This document shows positions 1,898 through 59,906 of a DNA stretch of 64,000 nucleotides, in pieces; the first letter of the stretch is position 1; every line of letters begins with the position of its first letter. The DNA is taken from positions 96,001 through 160,000 of IMG/VR virus record IMGVR_UViG_3300036766_000359; one strand, written 5' to 3'. This DNA comes from a virus. The notes under the pieces are model-generated. The model was not told the DNA's origin and made no database searches. It saw only the letters and a list, made by a program, of their open reading frames with translations. The position numbers were made by a program, and so were the translations under genes.

Positions 1898-2629
1898 ATG
1901 AAACCAAGAAAAACGAAAAAAGCTCCCACCACTCCAAGTGACGATGAATTCAAAGAAGCTGTAGATAAATGCGTCAAAAGAATTGCTGGACCGAAAGAAG
2001 CTGAGTACCTACAAGTATGGCTTTTAGAAGTTGTTAAAAATAATGCGATTCCGGTAAGTCTTCTAGAATTCATACCAATGCCAGCAGCAGAAGTTGGAAA
2101 AACCAGATTTGATCAAATCTACGATGCCGCTATGTCATTAGTATTCCCAGGGTATTCTCAATCAACCTCAGAAAAACTTTTAGGTCCTGCACCAAAGAAA
2201 AATATGAAGATATGGAGGATAATACTACCTGAAAAATTCAAGATAACGCACGTACTTATCCGTGCGATTAGTTTTCAACAGGCATTTGCTCTCGGGTGCG
2301 ACTACGCGTGTCGAATGTCTTTGCGTTTATACGGGAAAATTCCTGTTGATATGACTATTAGGGTCATATTCATGACTGAAAGATCTCTCAGAAGATATCT
2401 TAACCTCAGGTGGGCAAATCGAACATCACGACGAAGAAAACTAAAACTCGAGGGGAGAGAAATTTCCCACCGACAGTTAAATGGTGTCCGTTTAGTCGCG
2501 CTAGGATCCCCAAAAAGTCATTTATATAGTGTAGCTCGATATTGTGAGAGGAAAGATTTAGATAGGGTTTTGAAAGGAAAAGGTATTTCCAGAGAATCAC
2601 CCGTAGAAGCCGAGTCAGGCAAAAAGTAA
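1898..2629 (+). CDS. Hypothetical basic protein
   Basis: 243-aa ORF heading a + strand block. Confidence 0.75.
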   Translation: MKPRKTKKAPTTPSDDEFKEAVDKCVKRIAGPKEAEYLQVWLLEVVKNNAIPVSLLEFIPMPAAEVGKTRFDQIYDAAMSLVFPGYSQSTSEKLLGPAPKKNMKIWRIILPEKFKITHVLIRAISFQQAFALGCDYACRMSLRLYGKIPVDMTIRVIFMTERSLRRYLNLRWANRTSRRRKLKLEGREISHRQLNGVRLVALGSPKSHLYSVARYCERKDLDRVLKGKGISRESPVEAESGKK

Positions 2630-2672: not shown

Positions 2673-5135
2673 GTGCAGGAAGGGAAGTTGAATATACTAT
2701 TGGACGCATTCTGGGGTTCATCCGGAAAAGGAAAAACATCGTCTTTCCTTGCTGATAAATTTGGTGTTACACGAGTCTCTAGCTCAAATTTCCCAAATGC
2801 CGGTCACTGTTGTGGAGAAGATACATACATAACGACAAATCGTGGTCTCGAAAGATTAGGCGATGTTGTTCGTGCATCTAAATCTAACACATCCATAGTG
2901 AATATGGATGGTTCCTTTGAGTCCGTTTCACATTTTGTGGCAGATGGTATTCGGAAGGTTAACACAATACTATTAAAAAATGGTATTTCCATTGATTGCA
3001 CTGACGTACACCGGTTTTTAGTTTGGAATTCGGAAAAATCTGATGTTGAATGGGTTCGATCTATAGATCTTGATCCTGAAACTCACAGTTTCCTATTTCC
3101 AAAATCTGTAGCCTTCAATGGCGGTAGCCTCTTACCAACTGAGTGGACTTCTGCCGATAAACCAAACAAAACTAAAATTGGATTGCCTTTTTCAGAAGAG
3201 ATGTTTGCTTCTTATCTAGGTCTTCTCGTCGGTGACGGGTACTACGCTCGGAAAACGAATGTGAGTATTGCGTTCCATACAAGCCAAATTGATGTACTCA
3301 ATAAAATTCGGGCCATGTATTCGGAAATGGGCATAACAAATCAAAGTGTTGTTCAAGTAGGTGATAAAGAATGCTTTGTGCTCGACACATCCCAGTGTTC
3401 TGGTTTGATGGAATTGTTTGAACTCGTTAACCTCAAACTTGCGATAAAATCAGAAAAGCAAACACCGAAAAAAATTTTAACTTCAAACGTCAAAATCATG
3501 GGTGCATATCTTAGTGGTCTTTTTGACTCGGACGGATCCGTTAAGTCAGATAGAGTAACATTAAGCAACTGTTCCGAAAGTGTTGTTCGTGATGCACAAG
3601 CCATGCTTCATGTACTCGGCATATCAGGGTTTATTACATTTTATGACGATGATCGTGATGATACACGAATGCGTCAGTGGTGTTTGTCTATCAGTGGGTC
3701 AAGAAATCTTAGTATTTTTCAAGATAAAGTGGGGATGTTGTCCGAGATAAAACAACAAAAACTTCGTGGACTGGTTCAATCAATAAATCACGTTGGACAA
3801 ATCATAAATATCAACTCATCCGTTCGAGTTGAATTACGTAAACGCGGGTTTAAATCCGATTCAGGAAATAAAGGCGTTCGAGAGTCAACAATAGAAAAGC
3901 TTGCAGAATCCGGGTATTCAGGACCGGTTGTTGAATCACTTCGTAAATACCATATTATTCAGATTAAATCGATCGAATTTGAATCTAAAGAAATTGAAGT
4001 ATTTGACCTAACGGTTCCTGGCACACACAGCTATCTCGCTAATGGCTGCGTAGCTCATAATACGGCTACATTTAAGGACGGCACCAAGTTCATAGCGAAA
4101 GCAATTCCAACAGCCGCCATTCTCAAGAAAGTTAAAGGCGTTGGGATGCAGTGTTGGATAACTCCAGGTTCAGGTTTTGCTTGGGCACAGCTTATTAAAG
4201 AATGGGATGAATCTGGGAAACCAGAAATCAATATTCACTCGCGTGCATCAATTGTAACGACAGAGCATAAAGAAAGAGAATCTCAGGGAAACGAGTCAAC
4301 AAAACATATTGCGAGCACGATGCAAGGCTCAGCGGCTGCTATGGTAGACAAAGTCTTACGTAAGGCTGACTGTCAACTCGCAGAAACCACTGAATTGCAT
4401 AAGGTCATTGAGTCATTACGAAATAATGACAAATTGATGAACGAATTTTTCACTAATGATATAACGCAAGAGTTTCTTGAAAAAGTGCATGTAGTTGATG
4501 CTTGGGATTTTAGAAAACTAACTCATCAAGCGTTACATAATGGACATCCGTGGCTCCATGAGGGTTCACAAGGATACGCTTTGTCTATTGATCATGGGTC
4601 CCACTTTCCTTTTTGCACAAGTCGAAACGCTTCGATACAATCTGCGATGGACCATCTAGCCGTACCGCCAAAATTGGTCGGTGACGTTTATTTGAATCTT
4701 CGTACTATGCCGATTCGTGTAGGAAACGTCGTTGAGGACGGAGTTCAAAAGGGATACTCAGGCGATTTTTATCCAGACTGTCATGAAATGACATGGGAAC
4801 AAGTGGCACGAGAAGCAGGAATGCCGGAAGAAGAAGCAAAAAAGCTATCGGAAAGAGAACGAACAACGGTTACTAAAAGAGTTCGTAGAGTGTGTACTTT
4901 TTCGTTTAGTGGATTGAAAGATGCTGTTGCTACAAATGGAGCAACAAAACTCATTGTGAATTTCATTCAGTATATAAACTGGCAAGATGCGGGGCTCATG
5001 GGAGAACAAGACGCTTTCTTGAAGCTATCCAAAAAAAGCCGATCATTTATAGACCAGGTAGAAGAAGTTGCTGGAGTTCCTGTGGTACTTATTGGAACTG
5101 GTGCTTTACATGAGGAAATGATATCGAGAATGTGA
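2673..5135 (+). CDS. purZ: PurZ-like 2-aminodeoxyadenylosuccinate synthase (PurA family), intein-containing
   Basis: DAFWGSSGKG (Ser at the PurA catalytic Asp position), PNAGH/T, HEGSQG, FCTSR, RTMPIRV, TTVTKRVRRVCTFS, LIVNF. Confidence 0.8.
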   Translation: MQEGKLNILLDAFWGSSGKGKTSSFLADKFGVTRVSSSNFPNAGHCCGEDTYITTNRGLERLGDVVRASKSNTSIVNMDGSFESVSHFVADGIRKVNTILLKNGISIDCTDVHRFLVWNSEKSDVEWVRSIDLDPETHSFLFPKSVAFNGGSLLPTEWTSADKPNKTKIGLPFSEEMFASYLGLLVGDGYYARKTNVSIAFHTSQIDVLNKIRAMYSEMGITNQSVVQVGDKECFVLDTSQCSGLMELFELVNLKLAIKSEKQTPKKILTSNVKIMGAYLSGLFDSDGSVKSDRVTLSNCSESVVRDAQAMLHVLGISGFITFYDDDRDDTRMRQWCLSISGSRNLSIFQDKVGMLSEIKQQKLRGLVQSINHVGQIININSSVRVELRKRGFKSDSGNKGVRESTIEKLAESGYSGPVVESLRKYHIIQIKSIEFESKEIEVFDLTVPGTHSYLANGCVAHNTATFKDGTKFIAKAIPTAAILKKVKGVGMQCWITPGSGFAWAQLIKEWDESGKPEINIHSRASIVTTEHKERESQGNESTKHIASTMQGSAAAMVDKVLRKADCQLAETTELHKVIESLRNNDKLMNEFFTNDITQEFLEKVHVVDAWDFRKLTHQALHNGHPWLHEGSQGYALSIDHGSHFPFCTSRNASIQSAMDHLAVPPKLVGDVYLNLRTMPIRVGNVVEDGVQKGYSGDFYPDCHEMTWEQVAREAGMPEEEAKKLSERERTTVTKRVRRVCTFSFSGLKDAVATNGATKLIVNFIQYINWQDAGLMGEQDAFLKLSKKSRSFIDQVEEVAGVPVVLIGTGALHEEMISRM
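2808..4061 (+). mobile_element. Intein with LAGLIDADG homing endonuclease (418 aa)
   Basis: Starts CCGEDTYI after NAGH; block B CTDVH; YLGLLVGDG and YLSGLFDSDG; ends VFDLTVPGTHSYLANGCVAHN followed by Thr +1. Confidence 0.95.
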
Positions 5136-5144: not shown

Positions 5145-5396
5145 ATGTCAACAAGTAAACTACCAAAGGTGTTTGGCGCTGGTGATGTTACCATATGTGC
5201 AAACCTAGATGGTTTGCGAGTTTATATAGGACATACTGAAATTGAGTACATCAGACGAATAGAAATGAAACTCGAAGATGGAAAAATGTTTTTAGAAGTG
5301 TCATTCTTAATGAGCCATGACCCATCTGTTTCTAAGTCAATAGAAGAAGTGGTAAGAACTGCTAAAACTATTCCTTGGATCAAGATAGTACCTTAG
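5145..5396 (+). CDS. Hypothetical protein
   Basis: 83-aa ORF 9 nt after purZ. Confidence 0.6.
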   Translation: MSTSKLPKVFGAGDVTICANLDGLRVYIGHTEIEYIRRIEMKLEDGKMFLEVSFLMSHDPSVSKSIEEVVRTAKTIPWIKIVP

Positions 5397-5959
5397 CGAG
5401 ATCTCTTACGCTTCAAATGTATGCCGATTTGATCCGGGTTTTTGTTCATGAACTCATAACATGATTGAAAATACCCAATAATTGGCATGGCAGCATCTCT
5501 CTCAACGAGAGATTCGAAAATACTTTTTCCCTCAGTTTCAGACCACATCCACTCTTCTGTAATTGGAGAGTTTGGGGCCATTTGGCTCCATACGTTTCCA
5601 TATGGAAACATCATTAAAATGAATTCTTTTTTGTCAAAGTGTGGATGTGGTAAAGCAGAAAACTCTTCTCTTCTCTTTATCGATAGATAAGTACCGTCAG
5701 GAAGATAAACACCCTCTGGCGTCTTTGTTACCCACCGTTTGATCGACATCCATTTCACTTCAGGGGTTTTAAGACCCATTCTTTTACGACAAGCAAGTGA
5801 ACAGTCGTAAAGTGCCGACGGTGACAATCCGGACTCCCACGGTTTGAATTCTTCGGGGACCCCGCTAAATGAATGAAGAGCCTTAATAAAGGGTACTTTT
5901 ATTAAGGAAACCTGTTGTTGTACTTTTCCTAAGGTCTCTGCATCCATCGAGAACTCCAT
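5393..5959 (-). CDS. Hypothetical protein
   Basis: 188-aa ORF. Confidence 0.65.
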   Translation of the reverse strand: MEFSMDAETLGKVQQQVSLIKVPFIKALHSFSGVPEEFKPWESGLSPSALYDCSLACRKRMGLKTPEVKWMSIKRWVTKTPEGVYLPDGTYLSIKRREEFSALPHPHFDKKEFILMMFPYGNVWSQMAPNSPITEEWMWSETEGKSIFESLVERDAAMPIIGYFQSCYEFMNKNPDQIGIHLKRKRSR

Positions 5960-6036: not shown

Positions 6037-7371
6037 ATGACTGAACCGAAAGTTTTTTGTCTAGTCGATGAAAATGGTCGACTACTCCCACCGGCAGTTC
6101 AAGCCACGGTTTTAGCTAAATATTCACGGTCCCCGGAATCGGCCCATGAGATTATCAAAAATCTATCTGAAGAAGATGCCGATAAATTCCAGGGAAAATA
6201 TGTTATTGAGTATAACCACTCAAGCGTAGCCGAATTAGCGACAGTCCCAGTATGCTTCGAAGGTGTATCAATCATTGCGTCAAAATTTCTCGAATCCTTT
6301 CAAAGAATGGGGTACTCTGAAAAAAGTACCAGGTATCAAGTTTTCAACCGACATTCATTCATAACTCCTCCGGGAGCTCCGCCAACAATGAAAGAATTTG
6401 CGGCTAGGTTTTATGATGCGTATGAAAAATTATATCCCCGGGTACTCAAACGATGCGCCGAGCTTATGGGGAAAGACCCCAATAAGGAAGACAGAACTGT
6501 AAAAGCTAGAGCATTTGATAACATCCGATATTTGTTACCTTCTGGAACCGGGACTAATCTGGCAGCAGTTGGGTTTTTACGTGATTTTCGTTATATGATT
6601 CAAGAATCAAGAGGACACTCAAATCCAGAAATTAGGTCAATAGGTGACTCCACTCATGCAGCAATATCAGAAATATGTCCCGTGTTGGTTCGAAGCTCGG
6701 AAGCAGATTCTTTTGAACCACGAGTTAAATCGCTCGGGAATTTATCACCAAAATTTAAAATCGATAACCCGTCGTGGTACGTAGATTTATATAAACCTCA
6801 GACACTTGGAAATCCGAATACCATTCAGGAAACTTTTTGCGCTACCATAGCTGATCAATACGGAATGAGTTGGTCTGCTTTCAACAAACTCATGGAAGAA
6901 CGGGGAAAAAGAGCAGTACCGAAAATTTTCCGTTCTGTAAAAATTTCTCTAGATGTCATGATGGACTATGGTGCTTATCGTGATTTGCAGAGACATAGAC
7001 GATGTGAACAGTATTCTGAACCGTTGACTTCAAATTACGGGTACCTAGTCCCGGATGATATTGCTGGAACCGAAATGGAACCAGAGTACAGAACTGCGAT
7101 GGAACAAATTCATTTATATGACGACAATCGCGTGTCGTGTGATTCGGATTTGATGCAATATCTGATACCTCTAGGATACCTACACAGGTCCGTTTTCGAT
7201 ATGGACCTTCAAGAATTATATTATATCTCGGAGTTACGGACACAACCTCAGGGTCATATCTCGTATAGAAGAGTTGCTTACGAGATGGCAAAGGTTGGGT
7301 CGGCTCTATACCCGAATTTGATGAGTTGGTGTAGAGCTACGAATCCTGAAAGTATAGGGGTTCACACTTAA
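6037..7371 (+). CDS. thyX: FAD-dependent thymidylate synthase, tandem two-domain ThyX type
   Basis: AKYSRS, HSSVAE, SEKSTRY, RYLLP; second domain RDLQRHR, YISELR; GGAG RBS. Confidence 0.85.
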   Translation: MTEPKVFCLVDENGRLLPPAVQATVLAKYSRSPESAHEIIKNLSEEDADKFQGKYVIEYNHSSVAELATVPVCFEGVSIIASKFLESFQRMGYSEKSTRYQVFNRHSFITPPGAPPTMKEFAARFYDAYEKLYPRVLKRCAELMGKDPNKEDRTVKARAFDNIRYLLPSGTGTNLAAVGFLRDFRYMIQESRGHSNPEIRSIGDSTHAAISEICPVLVRSSEADSFEPRVKSLGNLSPKFKIDNPSWYVDLYKPQTLGNPNTIQETFCATIADQYGMSWSAFNKLMEERGKRAVPKIFRSVKISLDVMMDYGAYRDLQRHRRCEQYSEPLTSNYGYLVPDDIAGTEMEPEYRTAMEQIHLYDDNRVSCDSDLMQYLIPLGYLHRSVFDMDLQELYYISELRTQPQGHISYRRVAYEMAKVGSALYPNLMSWCRATNPESIGVHT

Positions 7372-11273: not shown

Positions 11274-12248
11274 TCAAGGGTGGTATTTATCAGAAGTATC
11301 CGACAAAACGTATTCATCCTTCCATTGTTTCCCATTCCAATTAGGGTCAGAGCATATTTTAACTATATCATCCATAGTTCGATATAAGTCATAGAGCGTT
11401 GAGTCATTTTCTATTACGAAGTCATACGCAGAGTCCTTGATCCTAGTTTGTTCGGTTTCTGACCGATGGTTAAACGGAGGTTTCGCAACAATAGGACGTT
11501 TAATCCGTATGATTACAGGAACCAGGTTTTCATCAGCGGCTTCACGTGCAAGTTTATGTTCATGAATATGACGAAAATCTGAAAAACACGTAATGAATTG
11601 AGAAATGGGGTCTACGGATTGTACAGGAAACAGTCCTTTTTCTTTCGAATACGCATAACCCGAGGCAATGAGGCGGTGATCTTGTATCCCTTTTCGAATC
11701 CAAGTGTCTGAGTACAAAGTATTCATTAATTCCATGTACTGCTGAAGAGACTCACGCGGAGATAACCAAAAATCAGGGTCACCTTCACGAACAAAATACC
11801 TAACAAGCCCATCTTTAGTCAGTTTATTCGGTTTTTGTGTTAAATAAGATTGAGAGTTATTTATGTCATCGTATGAATCATACAAATACCAAAGGTCTTT
11901 TTTTGCCCCTCCGATATACTGATTCCCGTTTTTGTCAACAATATCAAAAACATCATCAGGAATATTTTCTGGATGAACATTCCATCTTTGAAGATTAACA
12001 AGTTTAGTAATTTGCTTCGGGTATCTAACATCACCAGCGTTTCGAAATTCTGAAGGCCCCCACAATTGATTAGTCGTAAATCCGTAAGCGTCTTGCATAT
12101 GGCGCTTACCCGGATCAGCTAGACCAGTACGAGTTGCATTATGAAATGTAACAAGCCTGTTAGCGCATTCGTCTTTGCCTGCACTACTAAATCCCGATAT
12201 GCAAATCATTAAATGAGTCATTTCTTCCTCGTGTGTTCGTGTGTACAA
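11274..12248 (-). CDS. Deoxynucleoside monophosphate kinase (T4 gp1-like)
   Basis: ICISGFSSAGKD P-loop, LADPGKR, SPRESLQ, SDFRHIHE, HRSETE, DFVIENDST; likely start MTHLM. Confidence 0.8.
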   Translation of the reverse strand: MYTRTHEEEMTHLMICISGFSSAGKDECANRLVTFHNATRTGLADPGKRHMQDAYGFTTNQLWGPSEFRNAGDVRYPKQITKLVNLQRWNVHPENIPDDVFDIVDKNGNQYIGGAKKDLWYLYDSYDDINNSQSYLTQKPNKLTKDGLVRYFVREGDPDFWLSPRESLQQYMELMNTLYSDTWIRKGIQDHRLIASGYAYSKEKGLFPVQSVDPISQFITCFSDFRHIHEHKLAREAADENLVPVIIRIKRPIVAKPPFNHRSETEQTRIKDSAYDFVIENDSTLYDLYRTMDDIVKICSDPNWNGKQWKDEYVLSDTSDKYHP

Positions 12249-13272
12249 TGCAATAACTGTAAGTTCCTTTAGCCATATTACAGTTATGGCACAATACCTG
12301 AAATTTTGATTTTCTACGAAATTTCTCGATAAATGTGGATTTTTTGATAGTTATCCATTTATATAATGATGGACCACTTCTCGGTCCTTCATTATCAGTT
12401 TTATATGATATTTTATGATCAATGCATAGTCTATTTAATGCAGTTTCTCCACAACCGTTACAAGAACATTTGACAACCCCGTTACATACAGTTTCTAAAG
12501 CAGCCTTTTTCAGATTTTGTGATTCTATACACAGGTGTTTTAGGTAATCTTCTTTATTACAACAAATACATAAAACTTCATATTTTGACTTATCTGAATT
12601 TAACAAAATATCACGGTATAACCCGCGTGGATTGAAGTGTATACGATGTTCTTTTCCGTCATTGTTAATATGCTGAACTGTTAAAAACTTAATTTCGGTT
12701 ATATTACAACGAACACATTTTACTCCTCCAAGAGCATTGAAAACAGCCACTCGTTCAGAAACATACCTATTATTATCACATTCTTTACATGCGGAATTCA
12801 AACCGTCACTTTTCCCATTATATCGAAAAAATTCATTTGATTTCTTAATCTTTTTGCAATGCCAACATTTTTTAACGTAAGGAACAACTACATTTTGTCT
12901 TATCTTATTTTTATTGAGCAATGAATTTTTCTGGGTATTATCACAGCTTTTGCAACACCAGTTTAAACCATCTTTCCCAGAAAGATTTTTAGCAAATTGA
13001 TCACTTGACTTTGTTAGTCCGCATTTTCCACATGAGTTTTGACCTGGTAGCTCGTTTTCTTTATTTAACTTTTTACGATTTGTTCTAGAAATTAAATTGG
13101 AAGTTTTAGTACACTCTTTACAAAATCGTTGAAGACCGTCTTTTCTCGATGAACTTTTATAAAATAAATCAAAAGATTTTGTTTTCCTACATCTGCTACA
13201 TATTTTCATATTTATGCATGTGAACAAAAAATTTATAGAGTATGTTACCAGTTCCTGCCCATCCAACTTCAT
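12187..13272 (-). CDS. Free-standing multi-module HNH-like homing endonuclease
   Basis: Repeated CxxC...F.K....DGL...CKxC modules plus two LxxxH..NDG...EVLCxxCN domains; very AT-rich. Confidence 0.75.
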   Translation of the reverse strand: MKLDGQELVTYSINFLFTCINMKICSRCRKTKSFDLFYKSSSRKDGLQRFCKECTKTSNLISRTNRKKLNKENELPGQNSCGKCGLTKSSDQFAKNLSGKDGLNWCCKSCDNTQKNSLLNKNKIRQNVVVPYVKKCWHCKKIKKSNEFFRYNGKSDGLNSACKECDNNRYVSERVAVFNALGGVKCVRCNITEIKFLTVQHINNDGKEHRIHFNPRGLYRDILLNSDKSKYEVLCICCNKEDYLKHLCIESQNLKKAALETVCNGVVKCSCNGCGETALNRLCIDHKISYKTDNEGPRSGPSLYKWITIKKSTFIEKFRRKSKFQVLCHNCNMAKGTYSYCIVHTNTRGRNDSFNDLHIGI

Positions 13273-16183: not shown

Positions 16184-16599
16184 TCTCGGGGGCATTTCGA
16201 AATATCAGCACATGATGTGACTTTAGTTGCGCAGGTCAAATCATACATGATGATATTTACGGATCTCATATTTTCACAAACACTTTCGCATGTCGCCCCG
16301 TCATTGGTGGGGTTACCTTCTTTACACGACATGGACCTGAAATTAGAACAAGCCGTCGTACAAGACGGAACTACCGCGATCGGAGCGGGTGTTGGCCTAG
16401 GGGGTATTACGATCGGAGCGGGTGTTGGCCTAGGGGGTATTACGATCGGCGTAGGCGTAGGCGTAGGCGGGCACAACCCCATGCGTTCGCCACCACTTGT
16501 GTGTTCCGCATCGGGGCTAGTACTAGAATTTACACACTGGTCGCAACCGTAGTTACAACCTACGATAAGAAGAATCAGTGTGGTTAGATAAATTCTCAT
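16180..16599 (-). CDS. Cys-rich lipoprotein with Pro-rich linker
   Basis: Lipobox LLIVGC; PTPAPIVIPPR repeats; several Cys. Confidence 0.75.
   Translation of the reverse strand: MRIYLTTLILLIVGCNYGCDQCVNSSTSPDAEHTSGGERMGLCPPTPTPTPIVIPPRPTPAPIVIPPRPTPAPIAVVPSCTTACSNFRSMSCKEGNPTNDGATCESVCENMRSVNIIMYDLTCATKVTSCADISKCPRD
16378..16449. repeat. 33-bp tandem repeat x2 (coding, Pro-rich)
   Basis: gatcggagcgggtgttggcctagggggtattac twice. Confidence 0.95.
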
Positions 16600-17366
16600 T
16601 TCGTCCCCGAATCATGTGGTGCGTCAATGACCCAAAGGTCACTAGCCAGCGCACTGGCTACCGCAGACTGTTTAATTCGATATCGACCGTGTTCACCCCA
16701 CCCAGGCCCCCACGAGTTTTGACCCCAGAAAAATTCATCTTTGTAATGACCGTACAAAAACATAGCATGGCCACCTATAATAACCTTGGACTCATCAAGA
16801 AGTCCACCTTTGTAATCAAACCATTTGGCATCAATTTCTAAGCCGTACACTATAGGGTGGTTTGCGGCGAGAGCGCGTTTGATGTCTAGAATTCGTGCTG
16901 CGCCGACTGAATTGATGCGATAATAGCCCTTCAAGCTACGTTGGTCATAGGCTGCTCTGAAAGTAGCCCAGTCGGGTCGTTCGTTGACTTTAGCTTCTAC
17001 AAACGGCCACACGGTGGCCGGGGCGACTCCCAAGACTTTAGCAGCCTTAAAGACGTCACGAATATATGTTCCTTCGTCTACGGTTTCGGTGTTAGTGACT
17101 GCCCGACCAATGTCATAAAGCCAAAGTTGAGAAGGGATTCGACGGTCCTTGATGCCTTGAGCTCCCCAAGAGGTGTATATTGCCCCACTGGACGATTGTC
17201 CAGTACATGAGCTAGTCCCCACTTGATTATATGGAGCCGGTAAATGGGCTTCCATATTAGTTTGTTCAGGGATAGTCGTGACTGCCTGAACAGCCCCCAT
17301 CATGGAGAGTGGCTTGTCATTCGGGTCGTGAAGATCTTTCTTCCAACCTGTCCCGGGGTTAGACAT
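16596..17366 (-). CDS. Papain-like cysteine peptidase (C1 family)
   Basis: NQVGTSSCTG (Gln/Cys), GGHAMFLYG (His), QNSWGPGWGEHG (Asn). Confidence 0.92.
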   Translation of the reverse strand: MSNPGTGWKKDLHDPNDKPLSMMGAVQAVTTIPEQTNMEAHLPAPYNQVGTSSCTGQSSSGAIYTSWGAQGIKDRRIPSQLWLYDIGRAVTNTETVDEGTYIRDVFKAAKVLGVAPATVWPFVEAKVNERPDWATFRAAYDQRSLKGYYRINSVGAARILDIKRALAANHPIVYGLEIDAKWFDYKGGLLDESKVIIGGHAMFLYGHYKDEFFWGQNSWGPGWGEHGRYRIKQSAVASALASDLWVIDAPHDSGTK

Positions 17367-17432: not shown

Positions 17433-17957
17433 ATGAAAGAGAAACCAAAAATTGATTTTCATTTTGGGGAAGTGATTGAAATCCCGATACCAGGACCTGC
17501 AGATTCAGATCCTCCGGTATGGCCTAAAAGCCGTGGAGAGAAACTTAAGCCGTGGATAAATGCCATATCCATAATTGCAGCACTTGCAACTTCCATAACA
17601 GCAGCACTTAAACCAAATGACCCTATAAACAAAGCTTCATACGAGGAACTCAAGAAAGCAGTTGAGCAACTCAATAAAAATGATACTAGAAACCATGAAG
17701 ACATCATGGCCATACATAGTTATTTAGAATCGTATGCATGGAACGCTGCAGCCGCGTCTGCCGCAGCCGCACAGCCACCGCCAGTTCCACCGCGTGGACG
17801 CTTGAGAAATAAAATAGTTAAAAAGAAGTCATCCAAGTCTGAGAAGTTAGAAACTCCGCAAACTCCGGTTCTTCCTGAAATTCATGGAAAACCTCCGGTA
17901 CAAAATCTACCGGAGTTTGATGAACTAATTGAAGACCCGGATGAACTACTTAAATGA
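17433..17957 (+). CDS. Membrane-anchored coiled-coil protein
   Basis: TM INAISIIAALATSITAAL followed by a coiled coil and Pro-rich tail. Confidence 0.7.
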   Translation: MKEKPKIDFHFGEVIEIPIPGPADSDPPVWPKSRGEKLKPWINAISIIAALATSITAALKPNDPINKASYEELKKAVEQLNKNDTRNHEDIMAIHSYLESYAWNAAAASAAAAQPPPVPPRGRLRNKIVKKKSSKSEKLETPQTPVLPEIHGKPPVQNLPEFDELIEDPDELLK

Positions 17958-20540
17958 CTCATCTGGGATGGTGACAGATATGAAATTAGACGACGGGTCA
18001 TAAATCATATCAGAAGATTGATCACCCAAGTAATTTACTTGAACTACATACTGTCCAGTTTCTCTGGATAATTCATCAGATTGAAAATAACCGGCTTGAT
18101 CAACATCGTATGGACCGAAAGTCGTTCCGTCCAGTGACATGACTACTTTCCCAAGTGGGGCTGGACGATTTAGATAATCTACGACATGACCATCAATACG
18201 AAATTGTTCAGCGGATATCGGGACAGAGTCTAATAACACTGAAGTCATACTGTGAAATAGTGAAACTTCCAAAGTATATGGATCAGACGTACTTTGTTCA
18301 AAACACGAGTCACCTTCATATGTTGCGATGAACTGATATGTTTGAATGTTAAGCGATTCGATGGTTAAAATCGCATGACTCGATAGCGCATCATTCACGA
18401 GATTTGATTTACCTAACGGAGTCCAGTTCGGGCCGGGTAAACATATGAAAAAATCAACCAAACCGGTTGGAGACCCGGTGAGAGAGTTAGATGATACTGT
18501 CACAACAAGTTGAACTGGTGACTTGTTATCTACTGGGTTAATGGATGATAAAACCGCAGTGGTGACAGCTCTACGAACAACATACTGAATTTCCGAAGAT
18601 ATTATTTCTTCAGTATCAGGTTCTGAATAACTACAGTATAACGTTTGGTTTCCTGGTGGTAAACCATAAGTTCGAAGTGTCGCGATTCCACTAGAAGAAA
18701 ACACTGATGAACTACCAAGTAACGTTGGCTCTGATGAATTATAAGTATCAACTTGATTAGGACCAATATCAGGCCGTGTTAATCTTGGAGCAGATGATCT
18801 TTGAATACACGGTTCATCTCTTCCTTGAACCGTATTAGAAACGCGCATGTCAACGGCTTTGTTTGATTCTTTACCGGAAAATCTAATTAGACCACGAGTG
18901 TCTGTCCCATCATCCATACACGCGTCTGACTTGACAACTGCCCAAACTGATGTCCCGTCCCAGACTAAACCTGACAAGTCTTCAGCATAGACAGTTGGAA
19001 TTTGGACTATTTCACTTGAAAAATCTGTCCGGTATACGGAGCCATACATTGATCCAGGGTTGGCTGATCCGCATGTCCATAACGTACGTCCATCCCAAAC
19101 AGCACCAAGATATCCTTGTCGTGAAGAACTACCGGGTATTATTTGATATTTGATGCTAGATGGGTTTCCCAAAGACTCAATTCGAGCTATAAAATTATGC
19201 AAATCTAACGAGTCATCTTCATATATGCCGGTAAAAGCTATGGACTTAGAAATTCCATACGAACCGGGGATAACTGCGATGGAAAAAGCAGAGACGGGAG
19301 AAAAGTTTGGTTCTTTAGTGAGTAGTATTTTTTCTATCGTGAAATATTCAGGATCGATTTTCAGGATAAGTGCGGGAGCAGATGAAGAATCATTAGTTCT
19401 AACACTTTTACATGTAGCCCATAAAAATCGACCGTCGCATGAAATGTCATATAAATCAGGCATCCATGATGAATATTGATCGTTTTTTATTACGATCGAC
19501 ATTATCGACTTTGCAAGAACAGATTTTGGAAACCCGGAGATCATGTCCGATAGAACGAAGCTATAGATATGATCTGGTTCAGATGAATCAGACGCCGGGA
19601 CGATACAAAACGCCATTCCAGCACCGTCAAATGTTATGCGTCGAGCTTGATTGGGAAGACTCGATCTACCAACGACTCGACGAGTCTCCGGATCAATCAA
19701 AATTAAAGATTTTCCAACCCAACAAACAAGTCGAGTAAAAGGGTCGTACGCGATATGAAGTGCCCCGGTCTCACCGAATGGACTCAGATCAATAGACTGG
19801 AACTGTGTGGAAGTACCGAGAAAAGAAAAACTCGATAACTTAGGAGTCTTAGAATCCGATACCCACATCGAATTCCCATCCCATGCAGCAGAAGTCGGTT
19901 CAATGAAGCGTAAATTTTCTGGTGACTGAACAGGGTCTGGTTTAGATAGACGACTATAAAACGAGACAGGACCTACTGGTGGATTGATACTACCCTGAAG
20001 GGAAACTAATTGTCCGTAACTAGCTGAATCTGGAGAGATAGAAAGACGTAAATAACCAGGTTCAGCGGCCCGAGCAGCAAATAGTTGTTCTGGCGGTTCA
20101 ACAGCTTCCAGGATTTCTTGAAAGAAACGAACAGCCGGTGGAAGAATCGCCGGGGGGCTAGACCAAATTGAAGAAAACTGACCACTATACTGAAGTCCTA
20201 CCCCTCCAAATTTCCATGGAAGAACACCAAGAGAATTAAACTGCTTGGCTTTGTCGAAGGCTCCTCGTTCAGATTCAGACTCAATTGATTGCGAAGCACC
20301 TATGCTAATATGCGATGTAAGGCTAACTTGAAATTGATACGGGCTGGATTTAACCGCCCAAATGTTGGATAGTGGGCCAGTATAGGCACCGATATGCTGG
20401 CCCGCATATTCCCATCGAACTTGCGAACGTGAATGACTAGATCTGGCTTGTTTTTCGGCGTCTTCACGAGAGACAGCGGAAACAGACAAAGAGCCAGAAA
20501 CGTCAACCTCGGACAATAGAGATACGTTGAAAAGAGTCAT
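17946..20540 (-). CDS. Virion/surface protein with WDG beta-propeller repeats and Ig-like (Big_3-type) domains
   Basis: WDGNSMW, WDGRTLW, WDGTSVW; TTAVLSS..P...VQLVVTV...PTG.VDF...ATYEGD; duplicated N-terminal module. Confidence 0.75.
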   Translation of the reverse strand: MTLFNVSLLSEVDVSGSLSVSAVSREDAEKQARSSHSRSQVRWEYAGQHIGAYTGPLSNIWAVKSSPYQFQVSLTSHISIGASQSIESESERGAFDKAKQFNSLGVLPWKFGGVGLQYSGQFSSIWSSPPAILPPAVRFFQEILEAVEPPEQLFAARAAEPGYLRLSISPDSASYGQLVSLQGSINPPVGPVSFYSRLSKPDPVQSPENLRFIEPTSAAWDGNSMWVSDSKTPKLSSFSFLGTSTQFQSIDLSPFGETGALHIAYDPFTRLVCWVGKSLILIDPETRRVVGRSSLPNQARRITFDGAGMAFCIVPASDSSEPDHIYSFVLSDMISGFPKSVLAKSIMSIVIKNDQYSSWMPDLYDISCDGRFLWATCKSVRTNDSSSAPALILKIDPEYFTIEKILLTKEPNFSPVSAFSIAVIPGSYGISKSIAFTGIYEDDSLDLHNFIARIESLGNPSSIKYQIIPGSSSRQGYLGAVWDGRTLWTCGSANPGSMYGSVYRTDFSSEIVQIPTVYAEDLSGLVWDGTSVWAVVKSDACMDDGTDTRGLIRFSGKESNKAVDMRVSNTVQGRDEPCIQRSSAPRLTRPDIGPNQVDTYNSSEPTLLGSSSVFSSSGIATLRTYGLPPGNQTLYCSYSEPDTEEIISSEIQYVVRRAVTTAVLSSINPVDNKSPVQLVVTVSSNSLTGSPTGLVDFFICLPGPNWTPLGKSNLVNDALSSHAILTIESLNIQTYQFIATYEGDSCFEQSTSDPYTLEVSLFHSMTSVLLDSVPISAEQFRIDGHVVDYLNRPAPLGKVVMSLDGTTFGPYDVDQAGYFQSDELSRETGQYVVQVNYLGDQSSDMIYDPSSNFISVTIPDESFK

Positions 20541-31057: not shown

Positions 31058-32062
31058 ATGCGAAAATTGGTAAGTGTTCAGCGAGTGTTGGCATTGCATC
31101 CGATTCCAACTGCCGATGCAATCGAGCTTTGCCAGATCAATGGCTGGCAGTGTGTAGTCAAGAAGGGCGATTTTCAAATCGGTGATATCGGGGTGTACTT
31201 CGAGATCGACGCGGTACCACCGGATCGTCCGATATTTGATTTTCTGTGGAAGGGACAAGCGAAACGTCCAGGGTCACTTTGCATCCGAACGGTTCGTCTC
31301 CGGGGGGCATTGAGCCAAGGGTTGCTAATGCCCTTGGAGCTGTTCCCCGAGGCTGAATGCACCGTAGAGGGTGCAGATCTCACAGAAATCCTTGGGGTTT
31401 ATAAATATGAGCCACCGCCTCCTGATGGTATGGGCGACTACCGGGGACCTTTTCCAACCCTGATAGTCAAGACTGACGAGGTGCGTATTCAGAGTTTCCC
31501 ACAGCTTATCGATGAACTACGGGGTAAGCCTTACGTAAGCACCCTAAAGTGTGATGGTACCTCTGCGACCTTCTGCATGTGGGAAGGAAGCTTCCATGCC
31601 TGCGGGCGAAACCACTCAATCGCGGATGCCGATAACATTTTCTGGCGAGCCGCACGCCGATATATGCTCCCCGAAATCATGGCACGGTATCCGGATCTGG
31701 CTCTACAAGGTGAAGTGGTAGGCCCCGGAATTCAAAAGAACCATATGGGACTCAAGGGAGTGGAATTTCGTTCCTTTAACCTCTATGACATGCGCAAAGG
31801 CAGGAATCTCGACCATGATGAATGCTTTGCGTTTTACGAGAAGCATGAGATTCCAGCTGCTCCCGTCGTTGAAGAAGGGCAATGCTTCCAACACACGGTC
31901 GAGAGCTTACTCCAACTTGCTGAGGGCCCATACCCCGATACCAAGAACGAACGTGAAGGTATCGTGATCCGGCCTCGCATAGGACAGCATAGTCAGACAC
32001 TCGGGGGACGTTTGTCGTTCAAAGCCATTAGCAACCGTTTTTTGCTCAAGAGTGGGGACTGA
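31058..32062 (+). CDS. ATP-dependent RNA ligase (DRB0094/Rnl2-like)
   Basis: HPIPTADAIE, GWQCVVKKG, KCDGTS, QGEVVGPGIQKN, REGIVIR, FKAISNRFLLK. Confidence 0.92.
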   Translation: MRKLVSVQRVLALHPIPTADAIELCQINGWQCVVKKGDFQIGDIGVYFEIDAVPPDRPIFDFLWKGQAKRPGSLCIRTVRLRGALSQGLLMPLELFPEAECTVEGADLTEILGVYKYEPPPPDGMGDYRGPFPTLIVKTDEVRIQSFPQLIDELRGKPYVSTLKCDGTSATFCMWEGSFHACGRNHSIADADNIFWRAARRYMLPEIMARYPDLALQGEVVGPGIQKNHMGLKGVEFRSFNLYDMRKGRNLDHDECFAFYEKHEIPAAPVVEEGQCFQHTVESLLQLAEGPYPDTKNEREGIVIRPRIGQHSQTLGGRLSFKAISNRFLLKSGD

Positions 32063-47440: not shown

Positions 47441-47466
47441 CGTAAGTCTGCGAGTTGTCGGCGTAC
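47441..47466 (+). promoter_or_regulatory. Phage promoter motif
   Basis: cgtaagt-N15-gtac. Confidence 0.8.
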
Positions 47467-47508
47467 GGGTGGGGAGGCAAGCGCGGTGCTTGCCACGGAG
47501 GTGACGAT

Positions 47509-48615
47509 ATGCTGACCGACGTTTTCGAGATCGAACAGGCAACCTACAAGCGGGTACTCTCGTTCAACATCCGCTCTGGCGGGAACGTGATCATCCTGGG
47601 CCAAGCTGGCACAGGCAAGACGGAGATCGCGCAAGCGGTCTGTGGAGAAGAAGGGTTTGAGTACATCTACTTGAACCTGTCCGTTCTGGAGGCACCTGAC
47701 CTCGTCGGTTTGCCGATCATCGCGGCAAACAACACTGTTGACTACGCCAGCCCGAAGTTCCTTCCTCGGATGGACATCACCCCGAAGCCGATCGTCCTGA
47801 TTGTCGATGAGATCGACAAAGCCAAGCCCGAGCTTCAGAACCCCTTGCTGGAGCTTTTCCAGTTCCATTCCATCAACGGGACCAAGCTCAACATCAAGGC
47901 GATCATCGCCACGGGCAATCTGCCTGACGAGGGGGCGTTCAGCCAGCCCATCTCACACGCCCTCACCAACCGGTGCAAGGTGTACCGCCTGACGCACTCC
48001 TTCGAGGCGTGGCGCGAGTGGGCTCAAAACGACTCGCTCAACGCGCTGGTCATTGGCTTCCTGAGCAAGAACCAGGAGTACCTCAGCCGAGCGGCGGTCG
48101 AGGGAGATCCCACGGCGTACTGTCGCTGCAGCCCGCGCTCTTGGGCAATGGCCGCCAACGACCTGGACAAGACGTCCAGCCAAGACACGGTGGAGTTTCA
48201 GACACTCCTCGTCAGCGGTCGCGTCGGGATGGGCGCTGCGGTGAAATTCCGGGTGTGGCTCGACCACTATCGCCACGTGGAGCCCATCATCGAGAAGCTC
48301 GTCGAGAAGGGCGAGAAGCCTTCCATCAACGACATGTCGATCGATCGACAGCTCGTTTGCGCAATTGCCGCTGTGGCAGCCGTCGCCAACGAATGCAAGA
48401 GGGAGCTGAAAGGCGAGGAGCGCGTGAAGCAGGGCGAGCGCGTGACGAAGATTGCCAAGAACGTCTTCAGTTGGGTGAAGCTCCTCCCATCTGAGTTCCA
48501 GATTGGCGCGGTCAAGTCGGCACTCAACATGAAGATGATCCAGGAATTCAAGCTGACCAACGTTCAGGAAGTGATGGACACCTATCTCACGGTACGTAAG
48601 GCCATGAAGGACTGA
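47509..48615 (+). CDS. MoxR-like AAA+ ATPase
   Basis: GQAGTGKT Walker A, IVDEIDK Walker B, IATGN sensor 1, ALTNR Arg finger, SPRSW; GGAGG RBS. Confidence 0.9.
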   Translation: MLTDVFEIEQATYKRVLSFNIRSGGNVIILGQAGTGKTEIAQAVCGEEGFEYIYLNLSVLEAPDLVGLPIIAANNTVDYASPKFLPRMDITPKPIVLIVDEIDKAKPELQNPLLELFQFHSINGTKLNIKAIIATGNLPDEGAFSQPISHALTNRCKVYRLTHSFEAWREWAQNDSLNALVIGFLSKNQEYLSRAAVEGDPTAYCRCSPRSWAMAANDLDKTSSQDTVEFQTLLVSGRVGMGAAVKFRVWLDHYRHVEPIIEKLVEKGEKPSINDMSIDRQLVCAIAAVAAVANECKRELKGEERVKQGERVTKIAKNVFSWVKLLPSEFQIGAVKSALNMKMIQEFKLTNVQEVMDTYLTVRKAMKD

Positions 48616-51054: not shown

Positions 51055-52521
51055 ATGGCAACAGCAGACCGATCGATCGCAGCAACCATCACCCGTCTCA
51101 AGGATCCAGAGAACGTGGCGAGCAGCCCTCGCCAGTACATGGAACTTTGCGACAAAATCTCGTCCTGCATGACGAGGCTTTTCCAGTTCCCCAAGAACGG
51201 GGGCAACCCGTTCTTGTTCGCCCTCACCGGCCCGAAGCCACACTTCCTCGTCAGGAAGCTTCACGGACAGGATATCAAGACAGCGGCCACCGACGGAAAG
51301 AATTTCTACTGGAACCCTGAGTTTCTTGAGTCGATGAGCCCTCAAGAGATCCAGACGGTCATGTCCCATGAGAGCTACCACGTTCTCTTTTTCCACTGCT
51401 CGAAGGACCGGGCGGCTGGGAAGAAGCCGCATGAATGGAATATCGCCGTGGACTACATCGTCAACGGCGTCATTGAGCATGACCACGAAAAGAGCGGACG
51501 ATCGGCTTCTTTCAAGCTGTGGGGCGGCGCGATCGGATCGCCAATCTCGTTCGACGATTACATCGCCTGGATTGCGGGCAAGATTGATGATCTGCCGCAA
51601 CACGGTTGCTTCGCAGACCCGACCATGCACGGTCGGTCTCCGGAGTCCATCTACGGCGATATCATCCAGGCCCAACTCAGCAGCCCACGTCGTTGCAAAG
51701 AGAACGCGGGTGGCTGTGGAGCACTGTCCATCGACCCGAAGACCGGGGTCTCTGTAATCGATCAGCCCTGGGACGCGGACGCCTGCCAGAAGTGCGGCGC
51801 AAAGCCCAACCAGGGAACCGGCCCTGGGTCTCTCGACTCACATGTTCCCACCGACCTGACAAAGGATGAGGTCATGGGGGAGATGATGAAGGCTGCAGAG
51901 CAAGCCGCAGCGACTGGTCGTGGAACGGCCCCTGCTGAAATAGAGGCAGCCCTGGCTGAACTCAAGGCTCCGCAGCTCCGCCCGAGCGATATCATCCGAC
52001 AGGCATTCTTTCGCAAGGCAATCGACACCGGCAACAAGAACGACTGGAAGCGCCTTCGACGCCGCCAGCTCGCAATGACCCCTCGCCAGTTCCTCCCACG
52101 CAAGCACGAACATCTGCCCAAATGGGTGGTCTGCCTTGACACGTCTGGCTCAATGTCCGACAAGGACATTGCAAACGGCCTCAAGGAGATGCAGGCCGTC
52201 CCGCAGAATTCAGAGGGATGGGTGATCCCTTGCGATGCGGTCCCATACTGGGACCGGAAGACCCTCGTGCGGAACTCATCCGACCTCAAGCGGACCAAGG
52301 TCGTTGGACGTGGCGGCACGGTCTTCGACCAATTCTTCGCGGAGCTTCCAGAGAAGATTGGGAGGGACCTTGACATTGTGGTCATCATCAGTGATGGTGA
52401 TTGCGGGACTATTCCGATGAATCTCCACCCGCGTTGCGACGTGCTCTGGATTATCACGAACAAGCGTGACTTCAAGCCCACGTTCGGACGGGTCGTTCAA
52501 CTCAGTCCGTCTCGCGCCTAA
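51055..52521 (+). CDS. Metallopeptidase-like plus VWA domain protein (DUF2201-type partner of MoxR AAA)
   Basis: TAATDG, HESYH (HExxH), WNIAVD, DTSGS MIDAS, GRGGT.F, ISDG. Confidence 0.9.
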   Translation: MATADRSIAATITRLKDPENVASSPRQYMELCDKISSCMTRLFQFPKNGGNPFLFALTGPKPHFLVRKLHGQDIKTAATDGKNFYWNPEFLESMSPQEIQTVMSHESYHVLFFHCSKDRAAGKKPHEWNIAVDYIVNGVIEHDHEKSGRSASFKLWGGAIGSPISFDDYIAWIAGKIDDLPQHGCFADPTMHGRSPESIYGDIIQAQLSSPRRCKENAGGCGALSIDPKTGVSVIDQPWDADACQKCGAKPNQGTGPGSLDSHVPTDLTKDEVMGEMMKAAEQAAATGRGTAPAEIEAALAELKAPQLRPSDIIRQAFFRKAIDTGNKNDWKRLRRRQLAMTPRQFLPRKHEHLPKWVVCLDTSGSMSDKDIANGLKEMQAVPQNSEGWVIPCDAVPYWDRKTLVRNSSDLKRTKVVGRGGTVFDQFFAELPEKIGRDLDIVVIISDGDCGTIPMNLHPRCDVLWIITNKRDFKPTFGRVVQLSPSRA

Positions 52522-59880: not shown

Positions 59881-59906
59881 CGTAAATTCGCGTGTCGCGT
59901 GCGTAC
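59881..59906 (+). promoter_or_regulatory. Phage promoter motif
   Basis: cgtaaat-N15-gtac then GGAGGTG. Confidence 0.85.

What the first reader, a model, noticed from the sequence alone, without database searches (positions are those of the whole stretch)
2673..5135. PurZ signature: this jumbo-like phage may have a 2-aminoadenine (Z) genome
Seen: DAFWGSSGKG, N.PNAGHT (after splicing), TTVTKRVRRVCTFS and LIVNF. Established: PurA has GDEGKG with a catalytic Asp, GxTTGRxRR.GW.D and TKLD. PurZ has Ser in place of Asp (GSxGKG), TTVTK..RR..TFS and an NF motif for the ATP/dATP preference, and it makes the dZMP precursor from dGMP. Nearby thyX, dNMP kinase and a glycosylase-like gene fit a rebuilt dNTP pool. 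No datZ, mazZ or dpoZ is recognisable in this window. Inference: A-to-Z substituted DNA in a large phage.
Basis: partly seen in the sequence, partly recalled or inferred. Interest (0 to 1): 0.8.

Follow-up and report, generated by a model that had tools for sequence, protein, structure and literature searches.

The report
Intein-split PurZ gene in huge phage
This gene of an uncultured phage of roughly 400 kb encodes a divergent but residue-complete PurZ, the enzyme small phages use to replace adenine by 2-aminoadenine (Z) in DNA. A self-splicing intein cuts it in the active site, so Z-DNA in this giant-phage lineage is likely but chemically untested.

Summary
ORF 2673-5135 (+) is an adenylosuccinate-synthetase-family gene split after His45 by a 418-aa LAGLIDADG intein.

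In a maximum-likelihood tree it lies inside the Ser13 PurZ clade (100/94). It lies beyond the GTP-using PurZ0, in a large metagenomic sister group of the characterised phiVC8 and S-2L PurZ. It keeps their dGMP pocket, the TTVTK loop, the deoxy-selecting insertion and the ATP-type N-F-x-Q pocket.

It is divergent: 164 bits on NCBIfam's PurZ model, cut-off 300.

The 193-kb contig is about 45% of the genome. It has no DatZ, MazZ, DUF550 or DNA polymerase. Four complete relatives (377-436 kb) each carry one DatZ-like HD protein next to a family-A polymerase, in a region absent from this fragment.

ThyX is confirmed.

The family has two independent active-site intein sites.

This scan has already reported the same PurZ lineage in at least eight other huge-phage genomes.

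Verdict: a real PurZ-type enzyme (about 0.85-0.9). A Z-substituted genome is probable (about 0.6) but unproven.

The parts
2673..2807 (+). PurZ N-extein (45 aa): P-loop WGSSGKG with Ser16 at the Asp13 position, and N-A-G-H45
   Evidence: Translation and motif positions; alignment to S-2L, phiVC8 and E. coli; GGAGG seven bases upstream of the GTG start.
2808..4061 (+). Class-1 intein with LAGLIDADG homing endonuclease (418 aa), inserted between catalytic His45 and Thr46 of the spliced protein. It has Cys1, TDVH block B, LLVGDGYY and LSGLFDSDGS, and terminal His-Asn followed by +1 Thr.
   Evidence: Pfam Intein_splicing 4e-13, LAGLIDADG_3 3e-15, Hom_end 2e-7; NCBIfam intein_Cterm 36 bits, cut-off 15.6; boundaries from alignment with intein-free relatives; motif positions.
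4062..5135 (+). PurZ C-extein (357 aa): ASTxxG, EGSQGYALS, FPFCTSRN, PIRVGN plus the insertion GYSGDFYPD, the TTVTKRVRR loop, and the NFIQY ATP pocket
   Evidence: PDB sequence search; residue map; NCBIfam; trees; dN/dS about 0.05 against L017.
1898..2629 (+). Conserved unknown gene (243 aa) directly upstream of purZ, probably co-transcribed (44-nt gap)
   Evidence: Found at the same place in 16 related loci at 44-79% identity; no Pfam or PHROG hit; AF2 pLDDT 74, best VIA Z 5.4 on a 60-residue sub-domain only.
5145..5396 (+). Small conserved gene (83 aa) starting 9 nt after the purZ stop
   Evidence: Homologues at the same place in 6 related loci; no Pfam or PHROG hit.
5393..5959 (-). Conserved unknown gene (188 aa) between purZ and thyX
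   Evidence: Found in 15 related loci at 34-76% identity; AF2 pLDDT 87, pTM 0.81; no Foldseek match at E <= 0.001 and best VIA Z 3.0.
6037..7371 (+). ThyX-type flavin-dependent thymidylate synthase, double length (444 aa, two Thy1 stretches)
   Evidence: PF02511 9e-30; TIGR02170 39 bits, below its cut-off of 87.9; syntenic with purZ in 15 loci.

Best explanation
The gene encodes the precursor of a PurZ-type succino-amino-deoxyadenylate synthase. The precursor is inactive because a 418-aa intein sits between the catalytic His45 and Thr46 of the N-A-G-H-T motif. The intein splices itself out (Cys1, TxxH, His-Asn, +1 Thr) and leaves a 402-aa enzyme. By analogy with phiVC8 and S-2L PurZ, that enzyme condenses dGMP with aspartate, at the expense of ATP or dATP, to give dSMP. 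Host PurB and kinases then convert dSMP to dZTP, which is built into phage DNA in place of dATP. The gene is a conserved core gene beside thyX in a lineage of about 380-440-kb phages. The rest of the pathway, a DatZ-like HD phosphohydrolase beside a family-A polymerase, is expected on the missing half of this genome, as in complete relatives. Shown here: family, clade, residues, intein anatomy, synteny and purifying selection. Inferred: splicing, the dGMP and ATP chemistry, and Z in the virion DNA.
For: The gene belongs to the adenylosuccinate-synthetase family and holds an intein. PDB sequence hits are short archaeal PurA at 1e-22, S-2L PurZ 7odx at 5e-19 and phiVC8 PurZ at 9e-19. In the careful IQ-TREE tree (110 rows, LG+C20+F+G4) the Ser13 clade has 93 tips, support 100/94 and branch length 0.53. 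All 93 tips carry Ser, and all 17 rows outside carry Asp. PurZ0 is basal. The ancestor of the query and the phiVC8/S-2L PurZ has 72 tips and excludes PurZ0 (85/91). FastTree on 239 rows and the quick IQ-TREE tree agree. The query keeps S-2L contact residues S23, N49-T53, S131, T132, R146, Q190, C204, T205, R240, V241, the loop insertion after V241, T273-K277, R280, N305, F306, Q308 and G335. PurA has D, V, G, T, K and D at the discriminating positions. It also keeps S14, Y244, W252, T262, F295 and Y298 (phiVC8 numbering), residues reported as enriched on experimentally dZ-enriched contigs. NCBIfam PurZ is the best-scoring model. dN/dS is about 0.05 against the closest relative. Synteny holds in about 15 huge-phage loci. 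Complete relatives G001, G002, G007 and G013 each have one YfbR-like HD protein with DatZ's R19, K81, K116 and metal ligands. Its Tyr20/Ser22 pair was reported on dZ-enriched contigs. It lies about 10 kb from a family-A polymerase. This contig lacks that whole region.
Against: There is no chemistry for this gene or phage. The NF038379 score is 164 bits, and 195-210 for full-length intein-free relatives, against a cut-off of 300; characterised PurZ and PurZ0 score 313-397. G130, Y203 and P336 of S-2L are Ala, Phe and Ala here. No MazZ, DUF550, DUF5664, DutZ or NDT was found in this contig or in four complete relatives. The HD protein has Ser where DatZ's Ile22 excludes the 2-amino group, and its nearest phage relatives are mostly HD proteins of phages not known to carry Z. 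The relatives' polymerase is only about 25% identical to any phage PolA and is not specifically DpoZ-like. Splicing is inferred from motifs only.
Confidence: 0.62

Rival explanations
1. The enzyme is a true PurZ-clade dGMP-using synthetase, but the phage does not package fully Z-substituted DNA. The enzyme would then give partial substitution only, or serve to drain and reshape the dGMP, dATP and ATP pools during infection.
For: No MazZ, DUF550, DutZ or DmtZ was found in the contig or in four complete relatives. The HD protein carries Ser22 rather than the adenine-selecting Ile22, and it resembles HD proteins of many phages not known to carry Z. The polymerase is not DpoZ-like. The more distant huge-phage clade (G024, G028, G037, G038, G043) has PurZ-like genes and no YfbR-like HD at all.
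Against: S-2L itself uses a non-selective polymerase, and PurZ can also consume dATP (PMC8342488). In Yang et al., 28 of 29 AdSS-family proteins on dZ-enriched contigs clustered with PurZ, and Tyr20 with Ser/Thr22 HD variants occurred on enriched contigs. The gene is conserved and under strong purifying selection.
Confidence: 0.27
2. It is an ordinary adenylosuccinate synthetase (PurA) that makes AMP from IMP, aspartate and GTP, carried as an auxiliary metabolic gene.
For: The best PDB sequence hit is Pyrococcus horikoshii PurA. The archaeal AdSS model NF003295 scores only 12-17 bits less than the PurZ model.
Against: Ser replaces the catalytic Asp13. The GTP-specifying T-K-x-D is N-F-x-Q. TTVTK replaces G(T/A)(V/T)TG. 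All 17 Asp13 sequences, including 10 short archaeal PurA, fall outside the clade, which has 100/94 support.
Confidence: 0.04
3. The gene is dead: the intein insertion in the active site, or a non-splicing intein, has inactivated it.
For: The insertion lies between catalytic His45 and Thr46, so an unspliced product cannot work. Most relatives in IMG/VR lack the intein.
Against: The frame is open for 820 codons. All splicing residues and both LAGLIDADG motifs are intact. The exteins are 81% identical to the intein-free L017 with dN/dS about 0.05. Eighteen relatives carry an intein at the same site with intact exteins.
Confidence: 0.04

Closest known systems
[quoted passage not shown]
   Same: It shares the Ser13 clade, the dGMP pocket, the TTVTK loop, the insertion after the R-V pair, and the ATP-type N-F-x-Q/N pocket. 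The predicted reaction is dGMP + Asp + (d)ATP to dSMP.
   Different: It is about 29-33% identical and belongs to a separate, large metagenomic sister clade. It scores 164 bits against a 300-bit NCBIfam cut-off. It sits in phages of about 400 kb rather than 35-85 kb. It is not part of a datZ-mazZ-purZ cluster. It is interrupted by an intein. G130, Y203 and P336 are Ala, Phe and Ala.
PurZ0 of Gordonia and Arthrobacter phages (Archimedes, PDB 7VF6; Wayne; Frizzle)
   Same: Ser13, the TTVT loop, and membership of the PurZ group.
   Different: PurZ0 branches basally. It has D/S-N/F-x-E/D at the nucleotide-base pocket and uses GTP, and its genomes carry DutZ and DmtZ (PMC12884076). The query has N-F-x-Q, and neither this contig nor its four complete relatives showed an NDT/DmtZ domain; a single dUTPase-family gene, not examined further, occurs in one relative, G013. 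The PDB E-value to 7vf6 is only 4e-9.
Short archaeal adenylosuccinate synthetase (Pyrococcus horikoshii PurA, PDB 2D7U, 5K7X)
   Same: Best PDB sequence match (1e-22). It has the same compact architecture of about 340-400 aa and the same C-terminal region. It is the sister grade of the PurZ group in the tree.
   Different: It has Asp13, GTVTGR and T-x-x-D, so it is an IMP- and GTP-using enzyme.
Inteins in phage replication and nucleotide-metabolism genes (terminase, RNR, helicase, PhoH)
   Same: A class-1 intein with a LAGLIDADG endonuclease sits in a strictly conserved active-site motif and has a patchy distribution. The intein's nearest non-PurZ relatives are inteins of PhoH-like proteins.
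   Different: The host protein is PurZ. No open paper held here links an intein with PurZ, and none of the five that share the words intein and adenylosuccinate was opened. The family has two separate insertion sites, sometimes both occupied.

Membership tests
PurZ group (Ser13 clade of the adenylosuccinate synthetase family, PMC12884076) | Serine in place of the catalytic Asp13 of PurA in the P-loop | tested here: met
   The query has WGS16SGKG. The position aligns with S-2L S23 and phiVC8 S14, and with Asp in E. coli and 10 short archaeal PurA.
PurZ group (Ser13 clade of the adenylosuccinate synthetase family, PMC12884076) | Phylogenetic placement inside the clade that holds PurZ and PurZ0 and excludes Asp13 PurA | tested here: met
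   In the careful IQ-TREE tree the clade has 93 tips, support 100/94 and branch length 0.53, with no Asp13 sequence inside. FastTree and the quick tree agree.
PurZ (ATP-using subgroup) | Adenine-nucleotide pocket N305, F306, Q308 (S-2L numbering) replacing the GTP motif T-K-x-D | tested here: met
   The query has N345, F346 and Q348, and 40 of 40 clade members have N-F. F295 and Y298 (phiVC8 numbering) are kept. The tree excludes PurZ0 from the query-plus-phiVC8 clade at 85/91.
PurZ (ATP-using subgroup) | dGMP pocket and deoxy selection: N49, A50, S131, T132, R146, Q190, C204, T205, R240, V241, the insertion after V241, and the TTVT loop tip | tested here: met
   All are conserved except G130 to Ala and Y203 to Phe. 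The insertion GNVVEDGVQKGYSGDFYPD is present.
PurZ (NCBIfam NF038379, curated model) | Score at or above the curated cut-off of 300 bits | tested here: not met
   The query scores 164 bits, the C-extein alone 148, and intein-free relatives P0049, P0050 and P0060 score 195-210. PurZ is still the top model; the next is archaeal AdSS NF003295 at 136-183 bits. S-2L scores 350, phiVC8 397, BCSR129 313 and Wayne 367. So this is not a member of the family as NCBI curates it, but a divergent sister branch.
Z-genome system (Z-cluster of PMC8342488) | purZ co-located with datZ and mazZ (or DUF550, DutZ, DmtZ) | tested here: not met
   None was found in the window or the 193-kb contig. In complete relatives a DatZ-like HD lies about 200 kb from purZ, and MazG was seen in only one (G018).
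Z-genome system | dATP-removing enzyme (DatZ) somewhere in the genome | tested here: inconclusive
   The contig is 45% complete and lacks the replication region. Complete relatives have one YfbR-like HD with R19, K81, K116 and the metal ligands, but Tyr20/Ser22 instead of Trp20/Ile22. That pair was reported on dZ-enriched contigs, yet the protein's nearest phage relatives are mostly from phages not known to carry Z.
Z-genome system | Enzyme makes dSMP from dGMP, and 2-aminoadenine is present in virion DNA | not testable with these tools
   This needs an enzyme assay and LC-MS.
PurZ0 | Guanine-nucleotide pocket; basal clade with the Gordonia and Arthrobacter phage enzymes | tested here: not met
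   Pocket residues differ. PurZ0 references form their own 100/100 clade outside the 72-tip clade holding the query.
PurA (adenylosuccinate synthetase proper) | Catalytic Asp13, the G-x-T-T-G-R loop and the T-K-x-D GTP motif | tested here: not met
   The query has Ser16, TTVTKR and N-F-x-Q. It scores far below the cut-offs of all PurA equivalogs.
Class-1 intein with LAGLIDADG homing endonuclease | Cys1, block-B TxxH, terminal His-Asn, +1 Cys/Ser/Thr, and two LAGLIDADG motifs | tested here: met
   C46, T110-H113, H462-N463, T464, LLVGDGYY (184-191) and LSGLFDSDGS (280-289); Pfam and NCBIfam intein models are above their cut-offs.

The most novel reading that the evidence does not exclude
A whole lineage of 380-440-kb phages packages 2-aminoadenine DNA using a minimal, dispersed pathway: PurZ beside thyX and two conserved proteins with no detectable structural relative, plus a Tyr20/Ser22 DatZ variant beside its own divergent family-A polymerase, and no MazZ. 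These would be the largest Z-genomes known. PurZ activity would depend on protein splicing at one or two active-site inteins, and one of the conserved unknown neighbours (orf243 or orf188) could be a new pathway component.
Probability: 0.4. Interest if true: 0.75.

Novelty: new variant of a known kind. Interest (0 to 1): 0.6.

Why it matters
In the open literature I could search, Z-DNA and PurZ are described for siphophages and podophages. No paper held here links PurZ with jumbo or huge phages, or with inteins. The largest named PurZ-annotated record seen in the phage collection was 83 kb.

If this clade is functional, complete replacement of a canonical base extends to genomes ten times larger, which encode their own replication machinery and many anti-defence genes. 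The required gene set would also shrink to PurZ plus one HD enzyme.

It would also give a new, very diverse PurZ branch for enzymology and for making Z-DNA. It offers a natural case of a base-modification pathway gated by protein splicing. A cultured handle exists: Flavobacterium phage MaF61 (168 kb) carries a member of the wider clade.

Tried and rejected
- tblastn and phmmer with DatZ (phiVC8, S-2L, Acinetobacter, Burkholderia), MazZ-1, MazZ-2, DUF550-DUF5664, Wayne DmtZ-DutZ and DpoZ found nothing on the contig except purZ itself.
- Pfam searches of the contig for HD, YfbR-like, MazG, DUF550, DUF5664, dUTPase, NDT, UDG, PolA and PolB were all negative. Positive controls (phiVC8, Acinetobacter Bhz20, Burkholderia BCSR129) were detected for YfbR-like, DUF550 and MazG. 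The phiVC8 MazZ-2 is invisible to Pfam, and the DUF5664 search rang nowhere, so those two negatives are weak.
- I asked whether the DatZ-like gene of relatives is simply deleted here. Its 40-kb surroundings in G007 and G001 have almost no homologues on this contig, so the region is missing rather than deleted.
- I asked whether the relatives' polymerase is DpoZ. It is only about 25% identical to any phage PolA and not preferentially to Z-phage enzymes, so this gives no support either way.
- I tried to give the two conserved purZ neighbours a function. Pfam, PHROGs, the ESM Atlas, AF2 with Foldseek and VIA-wide gave no convincing match.
Archaeal PurA sequences were instead reached through a 16S primer scan followed by a PF00709 search.
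- The PurA reading and the pseudogene reading were considered and rejected (see the rival explanations).
Full report
**What is there.** The window is bases 96,001-160,000 of a single 192,972-bp linear IMG/VR virus record that CheckV rates 45% complete. ORF 2673-5135 (+) is open for 820 codons and starts at a GTG seven bases after a GGAGG. Pfam finds an adenylosuccinate synthetase domain (2e-27) together with Intein_splicing, LAGLIDADG_3 and Hom_end.

Alignment with intein-free relatives fixes the parts:
- The N-extein is aa 1-45 (nt 2673-2807).
- The intein is aa 46-463 (nt 2808-4061, 418 aa).
- The C-extein is aa 464-820 (nt 4062-5135).

The intein has Cys1, a TDVH block B, two LAGLIDADG motifs (LLVGDGYY and LSGLFDSDGS), a terminal His-Asn and a +1 Thr. 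NCBIfam's intein C-terminal model scores above its cut-off.

**Which branch of the family.** The C-extein's best solved relatives are the short archaeal PurA of Pyrococcus (1e-22), S-2L PurZ (5e-19), phiVC8 PurZ (9e-19) and, far weaker, PurZ0 7VF6 (4e-9). A full HMMER scan of 1.84 billion cluster representatives gives 1,408 relatives. All 101 of the 150 best with a readable G-x-x-G-K-G P-loop have Ser at the Asp13 position, and most have TTVTK..RR.

I assembled references for the tree:
- PurZ came from phiVC8, S-2L, and Acinetobacter, Burkholderia and Bacillus phages.
- PurZ0 came from Wayne and Frizzle.
- E. coli PurA was taken from the K-12 record.
- Ten short and eight long archaeal PurA were reached through a 16S primer scan.

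Inteins were removed from the sequences by alignment. FastTree on 239 rows, a quick IQ-TREE and a finished careful IQ-TREE (110 rows, LG+C20+F+G4 by PMSF, 1000 ultrafast bootstraps) agree:
- Long PurA forms the outgroup and short archaeal PurA forms a basal grade.
- One clade of 93 tips follows, with support 100/94 and branch length 0.53. Every member has Ser; all 17 rows outside have Asp.
- Inside it the PurZ0 references are basal.
- The smallest clade holding the query and the characterised phiVC8, S-2L, Acinetobacter and Burkholderia PurZ has 72 tips, excludes PurZ0 and has support 85/91.
- The query sits in a 35-tip clade (99/92) made almost only of metagenomic sequences plus Flavobacterium phage MaF61.
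- Its nearest relative is 81% identical (L017).

**Residues.** I mapped the contact lists published for S-2L PurZ (PMC8342488) onto the query.
- It keeps S23, N49-T53, S131, T132, R146, Q190, C204, T205, R240, V241, the loop insertion after V241 that crowds the 2'-position, the TTVTK tip, R280, and the adenine pocket N305, F306 and Q308.
- G130, Y203 and P336 are Ala, Phe and Ala; the last also varies among accepted PurZ.
- At the discriminating positions PurA has D, V, G, T, K and D.
- Residues that a 2025 preprint found differentially conserved on experimentally dZ-enriched contigs (S14, Y244, W252, T262, F295 and Y298, phiVC8 numbering) are all kept.

The exteins are under strong purifying selection against L017: dN is 0.18 and dS is saturated, so the ratio is about 0.05 or less.

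On the other side, NCBIfam's curated PurZ model NF038379 is the best-scoring model but gives only 164 bits. Full-length intein-free relatives score 195-210 bits. The cut-off is 300, and accepted PurZ and PurZ0 score 313-397. I therefore call it a divergent sister branch of PurZ, not a member of the family as NCBI curates it.

**Context and the Z-genome inference.** The contig has no HD or YfbR-like, MazG, DUF550, DUF5664, dUTPase, NDT, UDG, PolA or PolB gene. It also has no replicative polymerase at all, so a large functional block is missing.

A degenerate-pattern scan of IMG/VR found 53 related loci. Many lie on contigs of 250-436 kb, four of them complete with terminal repeats. Each of those four (G001, G002, G007, G013), and two large fragments, carries exactly one YfbR-like HD protein (E 1e-18 to 1e-25). 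It lies about 10 kb from a 950-966-aa family-A polymerase and roughly 200 kb from purZ. The 40 kb around it has almost no counterpart on this contig.

That HD protein shares DatZ's R19, K81, K116 and metal ligands. It has Tyr20/Ser22 where DatZ has Trp20/Ile22, and Ile22 is the residue that excludes the 2-amino group. The same Tyr20 with Ser/Thr22 pair was reported on dZ-enriched contigs.

Three results weaken this line:
- The protein's nearest phage relatives are mostly HD proteins of phages not known to carry Z.
- No MazZ-type enzyme was found, apart from one MazG in G018.
- The polymerase is not DpoZ-like.

The step from PurZ to a Z-substituted genome is thus plausible, about 0.6, but not shown.

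**Neighbourhood.** The order orf243 - purZ - orf83 - orf188 (opposite strand) - thyX is conserved in about 15 related huge-phage loci. ThyX is confirmed. The two larger unknown neighbours fold with fair to good confidence (pLDDT 74 and 87). Neither has a convincing relative by Pfam, PHROGs, the ESM Atlas, Foldseek or VIA.

**Inteins.** The family has two insertion sites, both in active-site motifs.
- Site a lies between His and Thr of N-A-G-H-T. This is the site occupied here.
- Site b lies before the Cys of Y-P-x-C-T-S-R, which is part of the dGMP pocket. Inteins there are of the LAGLIDADG_2 type, about 375-405 aa long, and mostly end in Glu-Asn.

Among 239 sequences, 18 carry an intein at site a, 23 at site b and 5 at both. 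The tree needs at least 14 and 20 changes of state, which fits repeated homing and loss. The sample was enriched for long proteins by the length window. I found no open paper linking inteins with PurZ; the five that share the words intein and adenylosuccinate were not opened.

**Comparison, novelty and earlier notes.** The closest known systems are the PurZ of phiVC8 and S-2L. This gene matches them in predicted chemistry and residues. It differs in lineage, genome size, genomic organisation, helper set and the intein.

Earlier notes of this scan report the same PurZ lineage in at least eight other huge-phage genomes, with the same reading. One of them named NF038379, which I then tested myself. 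They are not independent evidence.

I rate the finding a new variant of a known kind, with interest 0.6.

Noticed in passing
window 2808-4061; relatives P0002-P0028, P0055, P0067-P0070, P0167, P0188, L049, L052: The huge-phage PurZ family is an intein hot spot with two sites: site a at NAGH|T and site b at YPx|CTSR. Both lie in substrate-binding motifs. Five proteins carry both inteins (about 1,160-1,230 aa). The distribution is patchy, needing at least 14 and 20 changes on the tree.
   Followed up: partly
window 1898-2629 (+) and 5393-5959 (-): Two genes flanking purZ are conserved at the same places in about 15 related huge phages and fold confidently (pLDDT 74 and 87). They have no Pfam, PHROG, Foldseek or VIA relative. 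They are candidates for unknown partners of PurZ and ThyX.
   Followed up: partly
window 6037-7371 (+): The ThyX is 444 aa with two Thy1 stretches, about twice the usual length, and scores below the TIGR02170 cut-off. It may be a fused or duplicated ThyX.
   Followed up: no
L003:5839-7182 (Flavobacterium phage MaF61, PQ858689, 167.8 kb): A cultured myovirus carries a Ser13 PurZ-like gene (P-loop FGSSGKG) in the same 35-tip clade, on a long branch. The gene lies between the scaffold and terminase genes. The paper describing the phage does not mention it. It is a ready test organism for dZ.
   Followed up: partly
L005:5950-7071 (Bacillus phage vB_BpsS-140): This phage's Ser13 'PurZ' scores higher on the archaeal AdSS model NF003295 (234 bits) than on the PurZ model (211 bits). 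The record shows no YfbR-like HD protein, and the gene branches between PurZ0 and PurZ.
   Followed up: no
window 12187-13272 (-), within the 12-16 kb GC trough: This ORF combines Lar-like, endonuclease VII and HNH modules and sits where GC drops to 36%. It may be a mobile endonuclease gene. Overall GC rises from about 40% (1-16 kb) to 50-55% (28-42 kb) along the window.
   Followed up: no
window 31058-32062, 47455-48615, 51055-52521, 59899-61107, 16596-17366, 17946-20540: Other identifiable genes are an RNA ligase with a PHA02142 OB domain, a MoxR-like AAA ATPase, a DUF2201 metallopeptidase/vWA protein, an ATP-dependent DNA ligase, a papain-like peptidase C1, and an 864-aa protein with a Big_3_5 domain.
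   Followed up: no
G018:C1:87878-88716 (L067): In one relative a 153-aa MazG-domain gene lies head to head with the DatZ-like HD gene. This is the only MazG-HD pairing seen in the lineage.
   Followed up: no
LR745208.1 286703-289891 (485-kb uncultured phage): The best phage-database match of the relatives' family-A polymerase is in three pieces over 3.2 kb, which suggests inteins or introns in that polymerase gene.
   Followed up: no
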